The notes beneath the pieces were generated by a model, which was not told the DNA's origin, ran no database searches, and saw nothing but the letters and a program-made list of their open reading frames with translations. A stretch of DNA of 64,000 nucleotides, taken from UHGV virus genome UHGV-0091736, one strand, 5' to 3'. A program made the translations under genes and the position numbers. The DNA is from a virus. Below, in pieces: positions 27,782 to 42,403 of the stretch (its first letter is position 1; each line of letters opens with the position of its first letter).

Positions 27782-27858
27782 TGGCGCACCGTGTAGGACT
27801 CCAACCTACAACCTATTTCTTAGAAGGAAATTGCTCTCTGCAATTGAGCTAACGGCGC
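27782..27858 (-). tRNA. tRNA-Arg (anticodon UCU), CCA encoded
   Basis: Hand-folded cloverleaf: GCGCCGT/ACGGTGC acceptor, GCTC/GAGC D stem, ATTTC-CTTCTAA-GAAAT anticodon arm, GTAGG-TTGGAGT-CCTAC T arm, G, CCA. 77 nt. Confidence 0.85.
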
Positions 27859-37424: not shown

Positions 37425-37849
37425 ACGGGGAACACACAACCGCAGGATAGACCACGGGGAAACATAGCCAGATAGTGCGGTAGTAATATACCACTTAAAT
37501 AATTAGTTAACTATTAATAGCATTACTCAAACATCAAAGACCATTCGCTACGCTCATGCACGCTGAAAAAGAAAAGAATAAAAAGAATATAATAACCATC
37601 AAACATAATCTTTCCACTTAATTAATACATATATCATTATTGCACTCATAATAACAACTATTGAAACTATTTACACTCAAACTATGGGGGATGGGATGGT
37701 TACTATACGGTATTATTAGACCTGTTATTATCACGCCTTAACAGAGTCTAGCCTTTCATCCACTCAGTAAAGGGGAACTAAATAAACGGGTAGGTAATGT
37801 AATAGATGACATATACGGGGAAAGAATAACGGGGAGTAGGCACGGGGAA
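37425..37849 (+). repeat. ACGGGGAA iteron-like repeats (at least 5 copies) flanking an AT-rich core (about 37490-37680)
   Basis: Copies at 37425, 37454, 37815, 37829 (ACGGGGAG) and 37842, plus AAGGGGAA at 37770. Confidence 0.6.
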
Positions 37850-38000
37850 GGTTAGAACGTGGGAGGAGGTGTAAAGGCATTGCCAATAACCCTTTTTTAA
37901 ATGAGGACTCCCCCTTTTTAGGAATTCGTCGCAGAGCGCCTAGCCCCACTCGGTCAAATCAGAATTTTAAACTCTTATATATAAGGTTGAAAGAGAACTT

Positions 38001-38165
38001 ATGTGGAAAATTAAGTTAATCATTAAGCAATTCAAATGTGATCATGAGTACTATCGGATACGCAAAGCTTACGGGGATGAAAGAGTTCACTCCCTTTATA
38101 AGTCCACTTGGAGATGTAGTGAATGTGGTAAGCTTAAGCACAGCACATGGATGGATAGGCCTTAA
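38001..38165 (+). CDS. small zinc-ribbon protein (54 aa)
   Basis: Hand-translated MWKIKLIIKQFKCDHEYY..WRCSECGKLKH... Not in the ORF track because it is under 60 aa. Confidence 0.35.
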   Translation: MWKIKLIIKQFKCDHEYYRIRKAYGDERVHSLYKSTWRCSECGKLKHSTWMDRP

Positions 38166-38395
38166 CGTGACATGGCCTTTATGGGGGTGCCTTAATGTGA
38201 AGTCCCTTTTATGTTTTAACTTTTATCAGAGGGATGTATGACTGAAGATGAATATGGTAGCTTCTCTGAAGAAGACTACGAAAATGAATACAGGTATACT
38301 CACGGGTGTTAATGTGAGGTGGCCTTTACGGGTTAGATAGCCATCAAAGATGACGATATGACTAGCCCTTTATACTTTACTCAGAGGACAAAAGT

Positions 38396-38506
38396 ATGGG
38401 ATGGTTCCTGTTGGTTTTAATTCTTTTTACCACTGTTCCTATTGTTGCTGTGTTTGGTTGCATAGCCGCTGACTTATTAGGAATAAAGAAAGGAGATGAT
38501 TTATGA
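38396..38506 (+). CDS. small hydrophobic peptide (36 aa)
   Basis: MGWFLLVLILFTTVPIVAVFGCIAADLLG... ATGA overlap with the next gene. Confidence 0.3.
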   Translation: MGWFLLVLILFTTVPIVAVFGCIAADLLGIKKGDDL

Positions 38507-38859
38507 GGTTGGATTTAAGAGGTTGTACTAGGTCAGTTATATTGTTCAGAGGTTATGCTATCAAGATTCCTACTTTTAAATCTTGGAAGCTTTTCTTAAA
38601 AGGGATTCTTGCTAATCTACAAGAGAGACATTTCTCTGAGATGAAAGACCCCAACCTTTGTCCTGTAGTCTTCTCTGATAAGTTAGGTTTCTTAGTAATA
38701 ATGAAGAGGTGTAAAGAGGTTGAGCACATAGGATTGTGGATGGCAGAGATTCACACCTTGAAAGGTTCCCTTCCTAAAGAATTTTACCTGTCAGATCTTA
38801 AGCCAGAAAATTATGGATACCTAGGCGGGCGGTTGGTTAAATTAGATTATGGAGATTGA
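38503..38859 (+). CDS. minimal protein-kinase-like protein (118 aa)
   Basis: YAIKIP (VAIK-like), LQER (helix C Glu), LVIMKR (hinge-like), SDLKPENYG (catalytic loop), KLDYG (DFG-like). Ends one residue after DYG. Confidence 0.5.
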   Translation: MRLDLRGCTRSVILFRGYAIKIPTFKSWKLFLKGILANLQERHFSEMKDPNLCPVVFSDKLGFLVIMKRCKEVEHIGLWMAEIHTLKGSLPKEFYLSDLKPENYGYLGGRLVKLDYGD

Positions 38860-39083
38860 TCATGAATTTAATACTAGACTTTTTATCAGAGTTGGTGCCT
38901 CGGTTCAGAACAGAAACTTGTGCCTTTGTTAAGATATCCCCTGAAGAATTAGAATGCATCGGTCGTCTGGTTGACTTGGATGATGATGAAGAATTTGATG
39001 CAACGATGGAAGTTAGTAGCCTAGGATGGTTATTCTTCCGAGCGTTCACCACTATCAAACCACACACTTATAAGGAATATTAA
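38856..39083 (+). CDS. hypothetical acidic protein (75 aa)
   Basis: ORF track; ATGA overlap. Confidence 0.5.
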   Translation: MIMNLILDFLSELVPRFRTETCAFVKISPEELECIGRLVDLDDDEEFDATMEVSSLGWLFFRAFTTIKPHTYKEY

Positions 39084-39086
39084 TTT

Positions 39087-39488
39087 ATGTTAGACTTAAT
39101 CCACACTACTCGCCCTAATTCTAAAACTAAAACACAACCATCTACTCTGGAAGTAGTTGAATATGAATCTACTAAACATGACCACCTCCCTGACTATGCT
39201 CGTGCAATGATTGAGATGATTGAAGAAGCTGAATATGAAATGCTCCATGATTACATTACCTCCAAAGATGAATGGCATCGTGATGTTCGAATAGAAGAGG
39301 ATGGTACAGAAACAATTACGTGGATTCACAAGAGTGAGCTAGTAGACGACGCACTGCGAGACTACGAAAAATTTTTGGTCGACGGCTCTATTCTTTTAGA
39401 GGAAGGGAAGGGTGCAGAACTTCCGTGGGAAGGCGAGACGATTGCTCTTGGTAAGATGTTTAACCTGTCCGTTGGTGATTGTAAGTAA
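39087..39488 (+). CDS. hypothetical protein (133 aa)
   Basis: ORF track. Confidence 0.55.
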   Translation: MLDLIHTTRPNSKTKTQPSTLEVVEYESTKHDHLPDYARAMIEMIEEAEYEMLHDYITSKDEWHRDVRIEEDGTETITWIHKSELVDDALRDYEKFLVDGSILLEEGKGAELPWEGETIALGKMFNLSVGDCK

Positions 39489-39493
39489 TATTT

Positions 39494-39516
39494 GCCTCCG
39501 TTGGGAGGCTTTTTGT
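39494..39516 (+). terminator. Rho-independent terminator (plus)
   Basis: GCCUCC-GUUG-GGAGGC then UUUUUGUG. Confidence 0.65.
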
Positions 39517-39524
39517 GTTGTTGA

Positions 39525-39533
39525 TAATGTAGA
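39525..39533 (+). promoter_or_regulatory. TAATGTAGA promoter-like element
   Basis: 8/9 match to TAATGTATA, 12 nt before the 39545 ATG region. Confidence 0.4.
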
Positions 39534-39544
39534 AGGAGTATAAA

Positions 39545-40018
39545 ATGTTTGGAGAAAACGGAGAACTCACGCCTGCACAGGTAGCTGAGATTACAGGAAG
39601 ATTACCCGGAGTAACGGAAGAACTTGAAGGCCGTGGTATGAACCCAAGCAATGGGAAGTTTCAAAAGGGGAATAAATTCGGACGACCCAAAGGTAGTAGA
39701 GGTAAACTGACACAATTAATGTTGGACCGTGTTGCTGCAAGTCATTTGTCTCCTGATGAAGTGTTAATTCAAATTTACGAAGATCCTAATATTCCACCTG
39801 ATCTTAGATTCAAGGCTGCATCAAAAGTTGCAGATCTGGTATATCCTAAGGCGGCCTCCGTTGAAGTTAAGATTGAGGAAGAGAATGTAATCAACGAAGA
39901 ATCATTGAATGCACAAATCAAGGACTTCTTGACTGGAGCACTTGGTATCGACGTTATGCCTCCAGAAGAAGACAACTCTGAGGACGCTGAAAAGGGGGAG
40001 GAAGCGGACGAGAGTTAA
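39545..40018 (+). CDS. putative small terminase subunit
   Basis: Located immediately upstream of terL. GNKFGRPKGSRGK basic motif, acidic tail. Confidence 0.45.
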   Translation: MFGENGELTPAQVAEITGRLPGVTEELEGRGMNPSNGKFQKGNKFGRPKGSRGKLTQLMLDRVAASHLSPDEVLIQIYEDPNIPPDLRFKAASKVADLVYPKAASVEVKIEEENVINEESLNAQIKDFLTGALGIDVMPPEEDNSEDAEKGEEADES

Positions 40019-40087
40019 GTAAAGGAAAGAAGGGGAGGTTCTTTGACGAAGGGACTTTCCCTTTTCTATTTTTAAACTGGAGGAAGT

Positions 40088-40690
40088 ATGTCACTAGATA
40101 AACAAATTTATGAAGCTCTAACTGGTAACAATCTTAGTGTAGATGAAAAGAAAGCACTATTGAATATGTTGAAAGAGCGTGACCAATGGAGGAAGTATAA
40201 TAGGATTTTGTCTTTCAAGGCGTATGACTTCCAAAAGAAATTTTATGCAGCAGGATTGAAGCATAGGTTCAGGTTTCTCTGTGCGGCTAACCGAGTTGGG
40301 AAAAGTTACAGTGAAGCGTACGAATTCGCATGCCACGTTACCGGAAGATATCCAACATGGTGGACCGGTCATAAGTTTAAGAGGCCAATACTTGCGTGGG
40401 CTGTAGGGATTACAGGGGACTCAACAAGGAAAGTATTGCAAAAAGAATTATTTGGTACACCAATTGGAAAGGACACTAATCTGCTAGGTACTGGAGTTAT
40501 TCCACGAGATGCAATAGTAATAGATACTATAGAAAGGGATGGTAATAAGCTACAGATAGTACAGATTAAGCACCAGAATGAAAGGGGTGAGTTTGATGGA
40601 TTAAGTACGTTAGAATTTCGATCAACACAACAGGGTGAACATACACTGATGGGTGCTACTGTTGATTATATATGGCTGGATGAAGAGGAT
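40088..40690 (+). CDS. terL: terminase large subunit, exon 1 (ATPase through Walker B)
   Basis: CAANRVGKS (Walker A-like) and VDYIWLDEED (Walker B). The ORF then stops after 2 more codons. Confidence 0.8.
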
Positions 40691-40784
40691 TGTATATAAC
40701 ATAGCTAGAAGTGTTGGTCCTCTATAAACTCGGTGAATTGCTGGAACCTCTGACCCTTAAGTGGAAGACAATCAGCAGCGAAGA

Positions 40785-40793
40785 TAATGTATA
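40785..40793 (+). promoter_or_regulatory. TAATGTATA promoter-like element inside the terL intron, upstream of the HNH ORF
   Basis: Exact consensus, 85 nt before the 40878 start. Confidence 0.45.
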
Positions 40794-40877
40794 ACTTACT
40801 CATGATACATTATAACGTTCAACGACTATCGAAAGCATAGCCCGTATGGGTGAAGAAGCAAGTAGAGTAGATACCAA

Positions 40878-41456
40878 GTGGTATCGAAGTGCCGAGCAAA
40901 ACTAAGGAGTGATACATTGGGTAGACCTAACAAATCATTAGATTCAACCAAAACATGTTCAGTGTGCTCTGTAACAAAAGACATAGAATCTTTTGCAATA
41001 AGAACAAGAGCAATATCCACTGGAGAGGTTAGAATCTACCGTAAGTCTCAATGCAAAGAGTGCATGGCTGAGATGAGAAGGGATTGGGGTAAGAATAATC
41101 CAGATAAGATTCGTGAGAATAATAATTCTCCAAATAAGAGAGCTTGCGATAATGCAAGACGGGCTGGATTAGAAACTGCTTCTATTATCAGAGATGATGA
41201 GTATAATAAATTTGTTATGGAAGAAATGTATGAACTTCGAAATCTTAGAACAAAGGAAACTGGATTTCAATGGCATGTAGATCACATAATCCCTTTAAAA
41301 GGTAATAACGTATGTGGTTTTCATGTCTGGTATAACTTGCAGGTAGTTCCTGCTGTTTTCAACCTATCTAAGAGTAATAGTTTTGATGATATAGTCTGCT
41401 CTGCATGGAAACATGCAGCTGGAGAAATCCGGGATGAGATTAACGATCTTGTCTGA
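40878..41456 (+). CDS. HNH homing endonuclease (intron-encoded)
   Basis: [37 protein letters not shown]-terminal Cys pairs CSVC..CKEC. Confidence 0.85.
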
Positions 41457-41464
41457 ACAACACG

Positions 41465-42403
41465 CCATATGAGTCTATGGCTATATTCGCACAGTGCGTC
41501 ACACGTACACTCACAACTAAAGGTCTAGTTACAATTACAGCTACACCAGAGAACGGTTTAACTGAACTGGTAGATAAATTTATGAAAGGTGAAGGGGATG
41601 AGAACACAGGTTCTCTATATTTCCAGAATGCTTCTTGGTGGGATGCTCATGCAGACCTAGGTGGACATATCACTGACCAAGATATAAAAGATATGACTGA
41701 AGGTATTCCAGCGTGGCAGTTAGAGATGCGTTCGAAAGGTATGCCATTGTTAGGAAGTGGTTTGATATATGATGTATCGGATGACACAATTAAATGTGAA
41801 CCATTCGAAATTCCTGATACGTGGAAACGTGTCTGTGCAATTGATATTGGTATTGATCACCCAACTGCTGCTGTTTGGACAGCTTACGATGCAAACACGG
41901 ATACTGTCTATGTTTACGACTCATATAAAGAAGGTGGCTTTACTCCAGTGTATCATGCTCCAGCTATTAATGGTCGTGGTCAGTGGATTCCTGTCATCCT
42001 ACCGCATGATGCGGACAATATTGAGAAAGGTAGTGGATCATCTGTTGCTCAATTCTATAAGAATGCAGGAGTTAATGTACAGAGTGAGACCTTCTACAAC
42101 AAAATTGGAATGGATGGTAAAAAGAACTTCTTTGTAGAACCCGGAATCACAGATATCCGAGAAAGAATGATGAGTGGACGCTTTAAAATCTTTAACACAG
42201 CTGCTAACGCTAAGCTATTCGAAGAGAAAGCTAGATATCACCGCAAGGTTGGTAAGATTATTAAAGAACATGATGACTTAATGGATGCAATGCGCTATTC
42301 AGCGTGCTCTGTTACACATCGTGGTCGCTCTAAGCATGACGTTAGCTACGGAAGTGCTTCTCTGTATGAGGCAAACGTAAGCAGATGGAATCAGAGTTAC
42401 TAA
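41465..42403 (+). CDS. terL: terminase large subunit, exon 2 (ATPase C-motif and nuclease domain)
   Basis: ..TRTLTTKGLVTITATPENG.. (coupling motif) and CAIDIGIDHP.. (RNase H-like nuclease). Confidence 0.8.
   Translation, partial: PYESMAIFAQCVTRTLTTKGLVTITATPENGLTELVDKFMKGEGDENTGSLYFQNASWWDAHADLGGHITDQDIKDMTEGIPAWQLEMRSKGMPLLGSGLIYDVSDDTIKCEPFEIPDTWKRVCAIDIGIDHPTAAVWTAYDANTDTVYVYDSYKEGGFTPVYHAPAINGRGQWIPVILPHDADNIEKGSGSSVAQFYKNAGVNVQSETFYNKIGMDGKKNFFVEPGITDIRERMMSGRFKIFNTAANAKLFEEKARYHRKVGKIIKEHDDLMDAMRYSACSVTHRGRSKHDVSYGSASLYEANVSRWNQSY

What the first reader, a model, noticed from the sequence alone, without database searches (positions are those of the whole stretch)
38503..38859. 118-aa minimal protein-kinase-like protein ending right after the DFG-equivalent
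The first sizeable rightward gene has kinase subdomain signatures in the correct order.
- YAIKIP: the VAIK lysine.
- ANLQER: the helix-C Glu.
- FLVIMKR: hinge-like.
- SDLKPENYG: the HRDLKPEN catalytic loop without the HR.
- VKLDYGD: DFG-like.

The protein terminates one residue later, so it has no activation segment or C-lobe. Either this is an extremely reduced kinase or pseudokinase (compare the T7 gp0.7 host-takeover kinase or YrbL/Kdo-kinase-like minimal folds), or it needs a partner, for example the overlapping next ORF.
Basis: partly seen in the sequence, partly recalled or inferred. Interest (0 to 1): 0.5.

Follow-up and report, generated by a model that had tools for sequence, protein, structure and literature searches.

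The report
Minimal 118-residue phage kinase-like protein
This phage gene encodes a 118-residue protein predicted to fold like the ATP-binding, catalytic half of a protein kinase and to stop right after the last catalytic residue; it belongs to a large, unstudied, apparently phage-only family that may be the smallest kinase-type enzymes known.

Summary
ORF 38503-38859 (+) encodes 118 aa with the kinase motifs in canonical order, and stops one residue after D-Y-G.

It is not chance. A profile search finds 1,158 clusters (at 50% identity), nearly all 110-135 aa. 123 of 162 representatives end 2-3 residues after the DFG Asp. K21, E41 and D115 are invariant or nearly so. Position 98 is always acidic and covaries with position 103 (D with N, E with S).

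The window is a phiEco32-like coliphage. The gene and a 36-aa membrane-peptide ORF form a ~466-bp insertion ahead of the packaging genes. The next ORF is a core phage gene, not a partner, and no neighbour is conserved across phages.

The protein is not in the T7 gp0.7 or YrbL families.

Best reading: a stand-alone, probably active, minimal phosphotransferase with an open active site, carried as a mobile phage accessory gene. Activity, substrate and timing are untested. I rate it a new variant of a known kind.

The parts
38503..38859 (+). CDS of the 118-aa minimal protein-kinase-like protein (stop codon included)
   Evidence: ORF. PHROG 4301, E 1.7e-34. 1,158 homologous clusters. AF2 pLDDT 94.5. 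Kinase fold matches.
38521..38538 (+). Residues 7-12, G-C-T-R-S-V: remnant of the glycine-rich loop (G-x-T/S-R-x-V), between strands beta1 and beta2
   Evidence: G7 159/162, T9 136/162, R10 160/162, V12 153/162. Aligns with G-x-G-x-x-R-x-V of the 142-aa sister group.
38554..38571 (+). Residues 18-23, YAIKIP: strand beta3 with the ATP-anchoring Lys K21
   Evidence: K21 161/162 and P23 158/162. Strand 18-23 in the model.
38584..38637 (+). Residues 28-45: helix alphaC with invariant E41, plus G34 and N38
   Evidence: Helix 28-45. E41 162/162, N38 158/162, G34 159/162.
38791..38817 (+). Residues 97-105, SDLKPENYG: catalytic loop (D98 base, K100, N103 metal ligand)
   Evidence: Profile alignment to HSDLKPAN of TTK. 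Position 98 is D in 98 and E in 63 of 162. D98 always occurs with N103; E98 occurs with S103 in 53/63.
38845..38856 (+). Residues 115-118, D-Y-G-D: DFG-equivalent Mg-binding Asp, followed by the C-terminus
   Evidence: D115 162/162, Y116 144/162, G117 141/162. 123/162 representatives end 2-3 residues after this Asp.
38396..38506 (+). 36-aa hydrophobic (single transmembrane-like) peptide ORF. Its stop overlaps the kinase start (ATGA). It was co-inserted with the kinase gene.
   Evidence: Present with the kinase in related metagenomic Kuravirus-like contigs. Not a general companion of the family.
38396..38861 (+). ~466-bp insertion relative to phiEco32, placed exactly at the start codon of the phi32_4 homologue. 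GC 37.8% against ~41% in the flanks.
   Evidence: Alignment with phiEco32. GC content.
38862..39083 (+). 73-aa homologue of phiEco32 gene 4 (PHROG 12698). A neighbour, not part of the kinase and not a dedicated partner.

Best explanation
**What it is**
- The gene encodes a stand-alone, minimal protein-kinase-like domain.
- The elements, in order, are: a five-stranded N-lobe sheet with helix alphaC, a short hinge, two short helices, the catalytic loop, strands beta7 and beta8, and the Mg-binding Asp.
- The chain then ends. There is no activation segment and no helical C-lobe.

**How it most likely works (inferred)**
- It keeps the full set of residues that bind ATP-Mg and transfer the gamma-phosphate: K21, E41, D98, K100, N103 and D115.
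- It is therefore most likely an active ATP-dependent phosphotransferase, or at least an ATPase.
- Its active site would be wide open and unregulated.
- Substrate choice would come from the target itself or from a host partner, not from a substrate-binding lobe of its own.
- The D-x-K-P-x-N loop points to Ser/Thr-type protein phosphorylation as the most likely chemistry.

**Biological role (inferred)**
- It is a horizontally mobile accessory gene of virulent phages of Gram-negative bacteria.
- In this phage it is inserted, with a small membrane peptide, at the head of the rightward packaging/late cluster of a phiEco32-like coliphage.
- It presumably modifies host, or host-defence, components.

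**Shown versus inferred**
- Shown: the ORF, the family, the conservation pattern, the predicted fold, the insertion, and the absence of a conserved partner.
- Inferred: catalysis, substrate class, timing and benefit to the phage.
For: **ORF and translation signal**
- ORF and Shine-Dalgarno sequence.

**Family**
- 1,158 clusters at E<=1e-3 and 613 at E<=1e-10.
- Nearly all are 110-135 aa and end at profile position 119-120.
- 123/162 representatives end 2-3 residues after the DFG Asp.

**Conservation**
- K21 161/162, E41 162/162, D115 162/162.
- Position 98 acidic in 161/162.
- K100 137/162, G105 159/162.
- Coupled change D98+N103 (98/98) versus E98+S103 (53/63). This is expected for a working active site, not for a decayed one.

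**Fold**
- AF2 pLDDT 94.5 and pTM 0.84, with all five models at 92.9 or higher.
- Foldseek/PDB: all top 50 hits are protein kinases, probability 0.94-1.0.
- The profile aligns to TTK 'HSDLKPANF...IDFG' in register.

**Sister group**
- A 142-160-aa phage group with a clearer G-x-G-x-x-R-x-V loop is homologous (hhalign probability 99.1%, E 5e-19).

**Mobility and autonomy**
- Insertion relative to phiEco32.
- Relatives in jumbo, T4-like, N4-like, Aeromonas, Erwinia, Ralstonia and other phages.
- No conserved neighbour.
- No bacterial relatives found in a narrow-pattern scan of 185,579 genomes.
Against: - No biochemical evidence exists.
- The glycine-rich loop is reduced to one Gly plus an invariant Arg. 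The HRD His-Arg is absent.
- Sequence profiles of known kinase families do not detect the protein.
- Foldseek E-values against the PDB are modest (about 2e-3).
- In this phage the gene lies in the rightward cluster described as late in phiEco32 (PMC8948821), not in the early host-takeover cluster. The analogy with T7 gp0.7 in timing is therefore doubtful.
Confidence: 0.6

Rival explanations
1. **Partner-completed kinase.** The half-domain needs another polypeptide to become active or to bind substrate. Candidates are a second copy of itself, a host protein (as OspG needs E2~ubiquitin and Bud32 needs KEOPS partners), or the co-inserted 36-aa membrane peptide.
For: - There is no C-lobe or activation segment.
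- The closest small solved relatives, Bud32 and OspG, work in complexes (established knowledge).
- The 36-aa transmembrane ORF is translationally coupled to the kinase gene.
- The 121Q homologue has an 83-aa multi-transmembrane ORF directly upstream.
- One family member carries a fused N-terminal transmembrane segment.
Against: - No phage-encoded neighbour is conserved across 15 loci from different phages.
- Transmembrane companions were seen in only 3 cases.
- The monomer is predicted with very high confidence.
Confidence: 0.25
2. **Kinase of a non-protein substrate**: RNA or tRNA, a nucleotide or second messenger, a sugar or lipid of the envelope, or an antibiotic-like small molecule. It would use the open active site.
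For: - There is no protein-substrate groove.
- In Tequatrovirus G4507 the homologue lies directly upstream of the tRNA cluster.
Against: - tRNA genes lie nearby in only 1 of 37 loci.
- The D-x-K-P-x-N loop is the Ser/Thr protein-kinase signature, rather than the loops of APH, RIO or Bud32 (established knowledge; alignment).
- No metabolic genes are linked to it.
Confidence: 0.2
3. **Non-catalytic nucleotide-binding protein** (pseudokinase, decoy or inhibitor). It would act by binding a host factor or by sequestering a nucleotide.
For: - The architecture is extremely reduced.
- The glycine-rich loop is degenerate and the HRD His/Arg is lost.
- Many small phage proteins act by binding alone (general knowledge).
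Against: - Pseudokinases usually lose at least one of the Lys, the catalytic Asp or the DFG Asp. Here all three are retained in essentially every one of 162 diverse representatives.
- The catalytic-loop pair changes in a compensated way.
Confidence: 0.12
4. **Artefact.** The gene is a truncated remnant of a full-length kinase gene, or the motif order is a coincidence.
For: - A few homologues are annotated as longer proteins: Kosakonia Kc263 at 267 aa and AH04 at 163 aa.
- The PHROG 4301 profile is 225 positions long.
Against: - Three quarters of 162 representatives from unrelated phages stop at the same point.
- The longer members carry unrelated tails, not a kinase C-lobe.
- The Kc263 extension overlaps a conserved downstream ORF in another frame.
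- The fold is predicted confidently.
Confidence: 0.03

Closest known systems
Bud32 / RIO / archaeal ArkI minimal atypical kinases
   Same: - They are small kinase-fold proteins that lack a classical activation loop and substrate groove, and they keep the Lys, Glu, Asp, Asn and Asp set.
   Different: - They are about 170-270 aa and keep the alphaE/alphaF helical C-lobe core. This protein stops at the DFG.
- There is no sequence-profile relationship.
- Their catalytic loops lack the K-P of D-x-K-P-x-N (established knowledge).
- They are cellular, not phage, proteins.
Eukaryotic-like (Hanks-type) Ser/Thr kinases, e.g. TTK/MPS1 and PknB (Pfam PF00069)
   Same: - The catalytic loop D-L-K-P-E-N and the D-[YF]-G motif align in register with HSDLKPAN...DFG of TTK.
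   Different: - No significant Pfam match in 130 members.
- G-x-T-R replaces G-x-G-x-x-G, and there is no H-R before the catalytic Asp.
- The whole region after DFG is absent: activation segment, APE, and helices alphaF to alphaI.
Phage T7 gp0.7 kinase (T7K; PHROG 2828; PMC13645617)
   Same: - It is a phage-encoded kinase-fold protein carried as an accessory gene.
- It is an unregulated kinase with a deviant DFG region. It is proposed to act promiscuously against host defences.
   Different: - It belongs to a different PHROG: 2828, against 4301 here.
- hhalign probability is 0.05%.
- T7K has a DPV motif, a full kinase domain of about 240 aa and a shut-off domain.
- A T7K-like structure ranks only 41st in BFVD.
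- T7K is an early gene. This gene sits in the rightward cluster that PMC8948821 describes as late.
OspG / NleH bacterial effector mini-kinases
   Different: They are still about 50 residues longer and keep C-lobe helices. They are type III secretion effectors that act in eukaryotic cells. There is no sequence relationship.
YrbL (PF10707, PhoP-regulated kinase-like protein of enterobacteria)
   Same: It shares the unusual G-x-G-x-x-R loop and an L-K-P-x-N catalytic loop with the 142-aa sister group. There are weak hits: Pfam E 0.0015, below threshold, and hhalign E 0.0025 over the N-lobe only.
   Different: The 118-aa group gives no signal against a YrbL profile. YrbL is 210 aa with a C-lobe. 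Its function is also unknown.
PaMx11-type 142-160-aa phage mini-kinases (same PHROG 4301)
   Same: They are true homologues (hhalign 99.1%). They have the same catalytic residues, occur in phages, and have no C-lobe.
   Different: They have a fuller G-x-G-x-x-R-x-V loop and a tail of 16-28 residues after the DFG. They are also uncharacterised.

Membership tests
Protein kinase-like (PKL) fold superfamily | N-lobe: five-stranded antiparallel sheet with helix alphaC between beta3 and beta4 | tested here: met
   AF2 secondary structure: E2-4, E10-14, E18-23, H28-45, E55-58, E65-68. Fold matches are almost exclusively kinases.
Protein kinase-like (PKL) fold superfamily | beta3 Lys and alphaC Glu ion pair | tested here: met
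   K21 161/162 and E41 162/162.
Protein kinase-like (PKL) fold superfamily | Catalytic loop with an acidic base and a downstream metal-binding Asn, followed by a Mg-binding Asp (DFG) | tested here: met
   D98/E98 in 161/162. N103 in 106 and S103 in 53, covarying with position 98. D115 162/162. In register with TTK.
Protein kinase-like (PKL) fold superfamily | Helical C-lobe core (long alphaE, alphaF and following helices) | tested here: not met
   The chain ends at residue 118, three residues after the DFG Asp. Only two short helices (76-83 and 92-96) precede the catalytic loop.
Protein kinase-like (PKL) fold superfamily | ATP binding and phosphotransfer activity | not testable with these tools
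   Needs biochemistry.
Hanks-type / eukaryotic protein kinase domain (Pfam PF00069) | Match to the family profile above its gathering score | tested here: not met
   No Pfam hit for the protein at E<=1. None of 130 family members hits PF00069.
Hanks-type / eukaryotic protein kinase domain (Pfam PF00069) | G-x-G-x-x-G loop, H-R-D triad, and activation segment ending in A-P-E | tested here: not met
   The sequence shows G-C-T-R, S-D, and no residues beyond D-Y-G-D.
Hanks-type / eukaryotic protein kinase domain (Pfam PF00069) | D-x-K-x-x-N catalytic loop typical of Ser/Thr kinases | tested here: met
   D98-L-K100-P-E-N103. K100 in 137/162.
T7 gp0.7 kinase family (PHROG 2828) | Profile match, DPV motif in place of DFG, and usually a C-terminal shut-off domain | tested here: not met
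   Only PHROG 4301 is hit. hhalign against T7 gp0.7 gives probability 0.05%. The motif here is D-Y-G. There is no C-terminal domain.
YrbL-PhoP_reg (PF10707) | Profile match above the gathering score (31.5 bits) | tested here: not met
   No hit. hhalign of the family against a 28-sequence YrbL alignment gives probability 0.2%. The sister group scores only 18.7 bits.
Bud32 / RIO / Kdo-type atypical kinases | Sequence-profile membership (Pfam RIO1, Kdo and related models) | tested here: not met
   No Pfam hits. Structural similarity only.
PHROG 4301 (phage protein family of unknown function) | Profile match | tested here: met
   E 1.7e-34 over residues 4-117. The 121Q-type, AH04-type and PaMx11-type relatives hit the same PHROG.

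The most novel reading that the evidence does not exclude
These ~120-residue phage proteins are fully active phosphotransferases on their own. If so, the kinase catalytic core can work without any C-lobe, activation segment or alphaF anchor. That would make them the smallest kinase-fold enzymes known. More than a thousand phage lineages would be using them as unregulated, open-site kinases against host targets, which could be proteins, RNA or defence signals.
Probability: 0.4. Interest if true: 0.8.

Novelty: new variant of a known kind. Interest (0 to 1): 0.62.

Why it matters
- **Minimal fold.** If active, this family would redefine the minimal protein-kinase fold. Textbook models hold that helices alphaE and alphaF and the hydrophobic spines are needed to position the catalytic loop and the DFG. 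A 118-residue enzyme that ends at the DFG would test that directly, and would be a compact scaffold for engineering.
- **Phage biology.** Phage kinases have recently been shown to act as broad anti-defence weapons (T7 kinase, PMC13645617). This separate family is found in jumbo, T4-like, N4-like and phiEco32-like phages, among others, and is annotated almost everywhere as 'hypothetical'. It could be a second, much more widespread, phosphorylation-based host-manipulation tool.
- **Annotation.** It is also a concrete example of a large family that sequence-profile libraries miss and structure prediction recognises.

Tried and rejected
- **Curated libraries:** Pfam, NCBIfam and PADLOC scans of the protein, of longer relatives and of 130 family members gave no meaningful family.
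- **PDB sequences:** sequence and profile searches found nothing significant. TTK appears at E ~0.4, in the right register.
- **T7 gp0.7 kinship:** rejected.
- **YrbL kinship:** rejected for this group and only suggestive for the sister group.
- **Dedicated partner gene:** rejected.
  - The next ORF is phiEco32 gene 4.
  - All-against-all comparison of neighbours in 15 loci found none shared between unrelated phages.
- **Membrane companion as a general feature:** only 3 cases.
- **tRNA/RNA-kinase hint:** prompted by the Ark1 match and the T4-like locus, but tRNA genes lie nearby in 1 of 37 loci.
- **Truncated pseudogene:** rejected by the uniform C-terminus.
- **Bacterial or prophage homologues:** none found, but the scan used one narrow pattern and so has limited sensitivity. 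The search for related loci with the broad alignment could not run.
- **Literature:** 8 searches found no paper on this family. The supplementary table of the T7K paper was not available.
- **Promoters:** the sigma-70 promoter scan found no more sites than chance. Expression timing could not be settled.

Full report
**1. The observation**

The + strand ORF 38503-38859 exists as described. It runs from ATG 38503, preceded by AAGGAG at 38490-38495, through 118 codons to TGA at 38857-38859. The five quoted motifs are present in the stated order: YAIKIP (18-23), ANLQER (37-42), FLVIMKR (63-69), SDLKPENYG (97-105) and VKLDYGD (112-118). The protein ends one residue after D-Y-G.

Two details need correction.
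- The 'overlapping next ORF' (38856-39083) overlaps only if its TTG start is used. Its homologues in phiEco32 and in related contigs start at the ATG at 38862 (73 aa), two bases after the kinase stop.
- A 36-aa hydrophobic ORF (38396-38506) lies upstream, and its stop overlaps the kinase start codon (ATGA).

**2. Where it sits**

The window is a phiEco32-like (Kuravirus) coliphage. Region 37900-40100 is 93-97.5% identical to phiEco32, ES17, FS2B and others, but only over 60-67% of its length. Window position 37750 corresponds to nucleotide 1 of phiEco32.

The alignment with phiEco32 shows that 38396-38861, which holds the 36-aa ORF and the 118-aa ORF, is an insertion of about 466 bp. It sits exactly at the start codon of the phiEco32 gene 4 homologue. 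Its GC content is 37.8%, against about 41% in the flanks.

No phage record in the INPHARED collection carries a homologue above 60% identity. The identical protein, and 96%-identical ones, occur on metagenomic contigs with the same gene order (36-aa ORF, kinase ORF, gene 4 homologue, terminase); the longest contigs carrying them are 69-77 kb.

In phiEco32 the rightward cluster at this end of the genome holds the packaging and structural genes, which belong to the late class. The early, presumed host-takeover genes are transcribed leftward (PMC8948821). The nearest match to the gp36 promoter consensus tAATGTAtA that lies in the expected place (TAATGTAGA at 39525) is downstream of the kinase gene. 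The expression time of this gene is therefore not known. It should not be assumed to be early.

**3. A large, real family with a uniform end**

A word-indexed search found 15 relatives. A profile built from them found 1,158 clusters at 50% identity with E<=1e-3, and 613 with E<=1e-10, among 1.84 billion representatives. Nearly all are 110-135 aa and match through profile position 119-120.

In 162 representatives, 123 end two or three residues after the DFG Asp. The few longer members carry unrelated N- or C-terminal tails and no kinase C-lobe.

Conservation falls on the residues a kinase needs:

| Residue | Count (of 162) |
|---|---|
| G7 | 159 |
| T9 | 136 |
| R10 | 160 |
| K21 | 161 |
| P23 | 158 |
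| G34 | 159 |
| N38 | 158 |
| E41 | 162 |
| G62 | 152 |
| Position 98, acidic | 161 (D 98, E 63) |
| K100 | 137 |
| Position 103 | N 106, S 53 |
| G105 | 159 |
| D115 | 162 |
| Y116 | 144 |
| G117 | 141 |

Positions 98 and 103 covary. D98 always occurs with N103 (98/98), and E98 mostly occurs with S103 (53/63). A compensated change between the catalytic base and the metal ligand is what a functioning active site would show. Retention of all key residues across such diversity argues against a pseudokinase.

**4. Fold**

AlphaFold2 with 15 sequences gave pLDDT 87. With 130 sequences it gave pLDDT 94.5 and pTM 0.84, and all five models scored 92.9 or higher.

The order of elements is beta1 (2-4), loop with G7, beta2 (10-14), beta3 (18-23, K21), alphaC (28-45, E41), beta4 (55-58), beta5 (65-68), two short helices (76-83, 92-96), catalytic loop (97-103), beta7 (104-107), beta8 (110-113), then D-Y-G. 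That is the canonical kinase order up to subdomain VII.

- **Foldseek against the PDB:** all 50 top hits are protein kinases, with TTK/MPS1 first (probability 0.94-1.0, best E 2.2e-3, TM 0.41-0.57 on the query).
- **Size comparison:** the smallest solved kinase-like chains in that list are about 170 residues.
- **BFVD:** returns family members, a Ralstonia phage 'protein kinase domain-containing protein', and giant-virus kinases.
- **Sequence register:** a profile of 130 members aligns, below significance (E ~0.4) but in exact register, '..vdakpenfGylngklvkiDYg' with TTK '[22 protein letters not shown]'.

**5. What sequence libraries say**

- Pfam: nothing at E<=1 for the protein, and no PF00069 hit in any of 130 members. 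The only kinase-clan traces are PIP49_C (4 members, best E 0.0011) and ABC1 (2 members).
- NCBIfam and PADLOC: nothing.
- PHROGs: PHROG 4301, 'unknown function', E 1.7e-34.
- GenBank: a few distant homologues are labelled Ser/Thr kinase by their depositors (Erwinia AH04 gp186, Kosakonia Kc263 gp027, pEa_SNUABM_5 gp070). All closer ones are 'hypothetical protein'.

**6. Relatives and non-relatives**

- **Sister group.** A second phage group of 142-160 aa (Pseudomonas phage PaMx11 type) turned up in the viral-contig scan. It has G-x-G-x-x-R-x-V, V-K-[VI]-E, D-L-K-P-E-N-F-G and D-Y-[GA], followed by a short tail. It is homologous to the 118-aa group (hhalign probability 99.1%, E 5e-19) and falls in the same PHROG. 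The alignment equates G7 with the second Gly of the loop, and R10 with an Arg that takes the place of the third Gly.
- **T7 gp0.7.** It belongs to PHROG 2828 (PMC13645617) and shows no profile similarity.
- **YrbL.** It gives no signal against the 118-aa group. Against the sister group there is only a weak match over the N-lobe.

**7. Context in other phages**

Homologues occur in:
- Asteriusvirus jumbo phages (121Q gp215, 55% identity);
- T4-like phages (JS10, IME341, G4507);
- N4-like phi G17;
- Aeromonas, Erwinia, Klebsiella, Ralstonia, Rhizobium, Sphingobium and Pseudomonas phages;
- a 42-kb contig, between a lysozyme gene and the terminase.

An all-against-all comparison of flanking ORFs in 15 loci found no neighbour shared between unrelated phages. 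tRNA genes are adjacent in one locus of 37. Membrane companions occur in three cases only. A narrow-pattern scan of one genome for each of 185,579 bacterial and archaeal species found no relative. The gene behaves as an autonomous, horizontally mobile phage accessory gene.

**8. Mechanism**

- **Shown:** a confidently predicted kinase N-lobe plus catalytic platform, a complete and conserved catalytic residue set, a natural end right after the DFG, and no dedicated partner.
- **Inferred, enzyme:** the protein binds ATP-Mg between the sheet and the catalytic loop (K21-E41, N103 and D115). It transfers the gamma-phosphate with D98 as base and K100 stabilising the phosphate. Because the activation segment, the P+1 loop and helices alphaF and alphaG are missing, the site is open and unregulated.
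- **Inferred, substrate:** D-x-K-P-x-N favours Ser/Thr protein substrates. The resemblance to Bud32, RIO and ArkI leaves ATPase or RNA-directed activity possible.
- **Inferred, role:** the benefit to the phage is presumably modification of host or defence components, by analogy with T7K (PMC13645617). It is untested, and the late-cluster position weakens a simple early-takeover picture.

I put about 0.9 on 'kinase-like fold with an intact catalytic set', about 0.6 on 'catalytically active', and about 0.35 on 'protein Ser/Thr kinase'.

**9. Novelty**

No paper on this family was found in eight full-text searches. The superfamily is known, and a few annotators have noticed the kinase likeness in distant members. 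The architecture is the new part: a widespread, phage-restricted kinase core of about 120 residues that ends at the DFG, some 50 residues shorter than the smallest solved relatives. I rate it a new variant of a known kind.

Noticed in passing
window 40088-42403 (intron 40672-41418; HNH ORF 40878-41456): The terminase large-subunit gene is split into ORFs of 203 aa and 308 aa. Between them lies an insert that matches the Rfam group I intron model (RF00028, 45 bits, just under the gathering score of 50, E 2e-9) and carries an HNH endonuclease ORF. Close relatives have an uninterrupted 513-aa terminase.
   Followed up: partly
window 38396-38506: A 36-aa hydrophobic, transmembrane-like peptide ORF was co-inserted with the kinase gene and is translationally coupled to it (ATGA). 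Phage 121Q has an 83-aa multi-transmembrane ORF directly upstream of its homologue, and one family member (P0091) has a fused N-terminal transmembrane segment. Possible membrane targeting in some lineages, but only three cases.
   Followed up: partly
window 38162-38387: A 24-nt element, TTAAYGTGA..GGCCTTTAYGGG, occurs three times (38162, 38192, 38309). A T-rich ...CTCAGAGG unit occurs twice, just before start codons (38214, 38369). The TAATGT core resembles the phiEco32 gp36 promoter consensus tAATGTAtA, so these may be promoters or processing sites for the small leftmost genes (PMC8948821).
   Followed up: partly
window 39087-39488: The homologue of phiEco32 gene 5 (called 'ABC transporter' in RefSeq and PHROG 12176) is 133 aa here, against 231 aa in phiEco32. 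Its N-terminal part is replaced by unrelated sequence.
   Followed up: no
window 38240-38250 versus phiEco32 ~496-561: The window lacks a stretch of about 61 nt that phiEco32 has in the gene 2/3 region.
   Followed up: no
window ~37750: Window position 37750 aligns with nucleotide 1 of the phiEco32 genome. The window therefore runs across the physical genome end, which suggests a circularly permuted or concatemeric assembly.
   Followed up: no
L046 2501-4909 (Tequatrovirus G4507): In this T4-like phage the mini-kinase homologue lies about 390 nt upstream of a cluster of 12 tRNA genes, between the ipI region and the tRNAs. This was not seen in 36 other loci.
   Followed up: yes
L003 1393-2419 (Kosakonia phage Kc263): The 267-aa 'PknA' annotation extends past the DFG in a frame that overlaps a downstream ORF conserved with Erwinia phage AH04. 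This is probably an over-extended or frameshifted gene call, not a real longer kinase.
   Followed up: partly
window 27782-27858 (-): A single tRNA-Arg(tct) gene.
   Followed up: no
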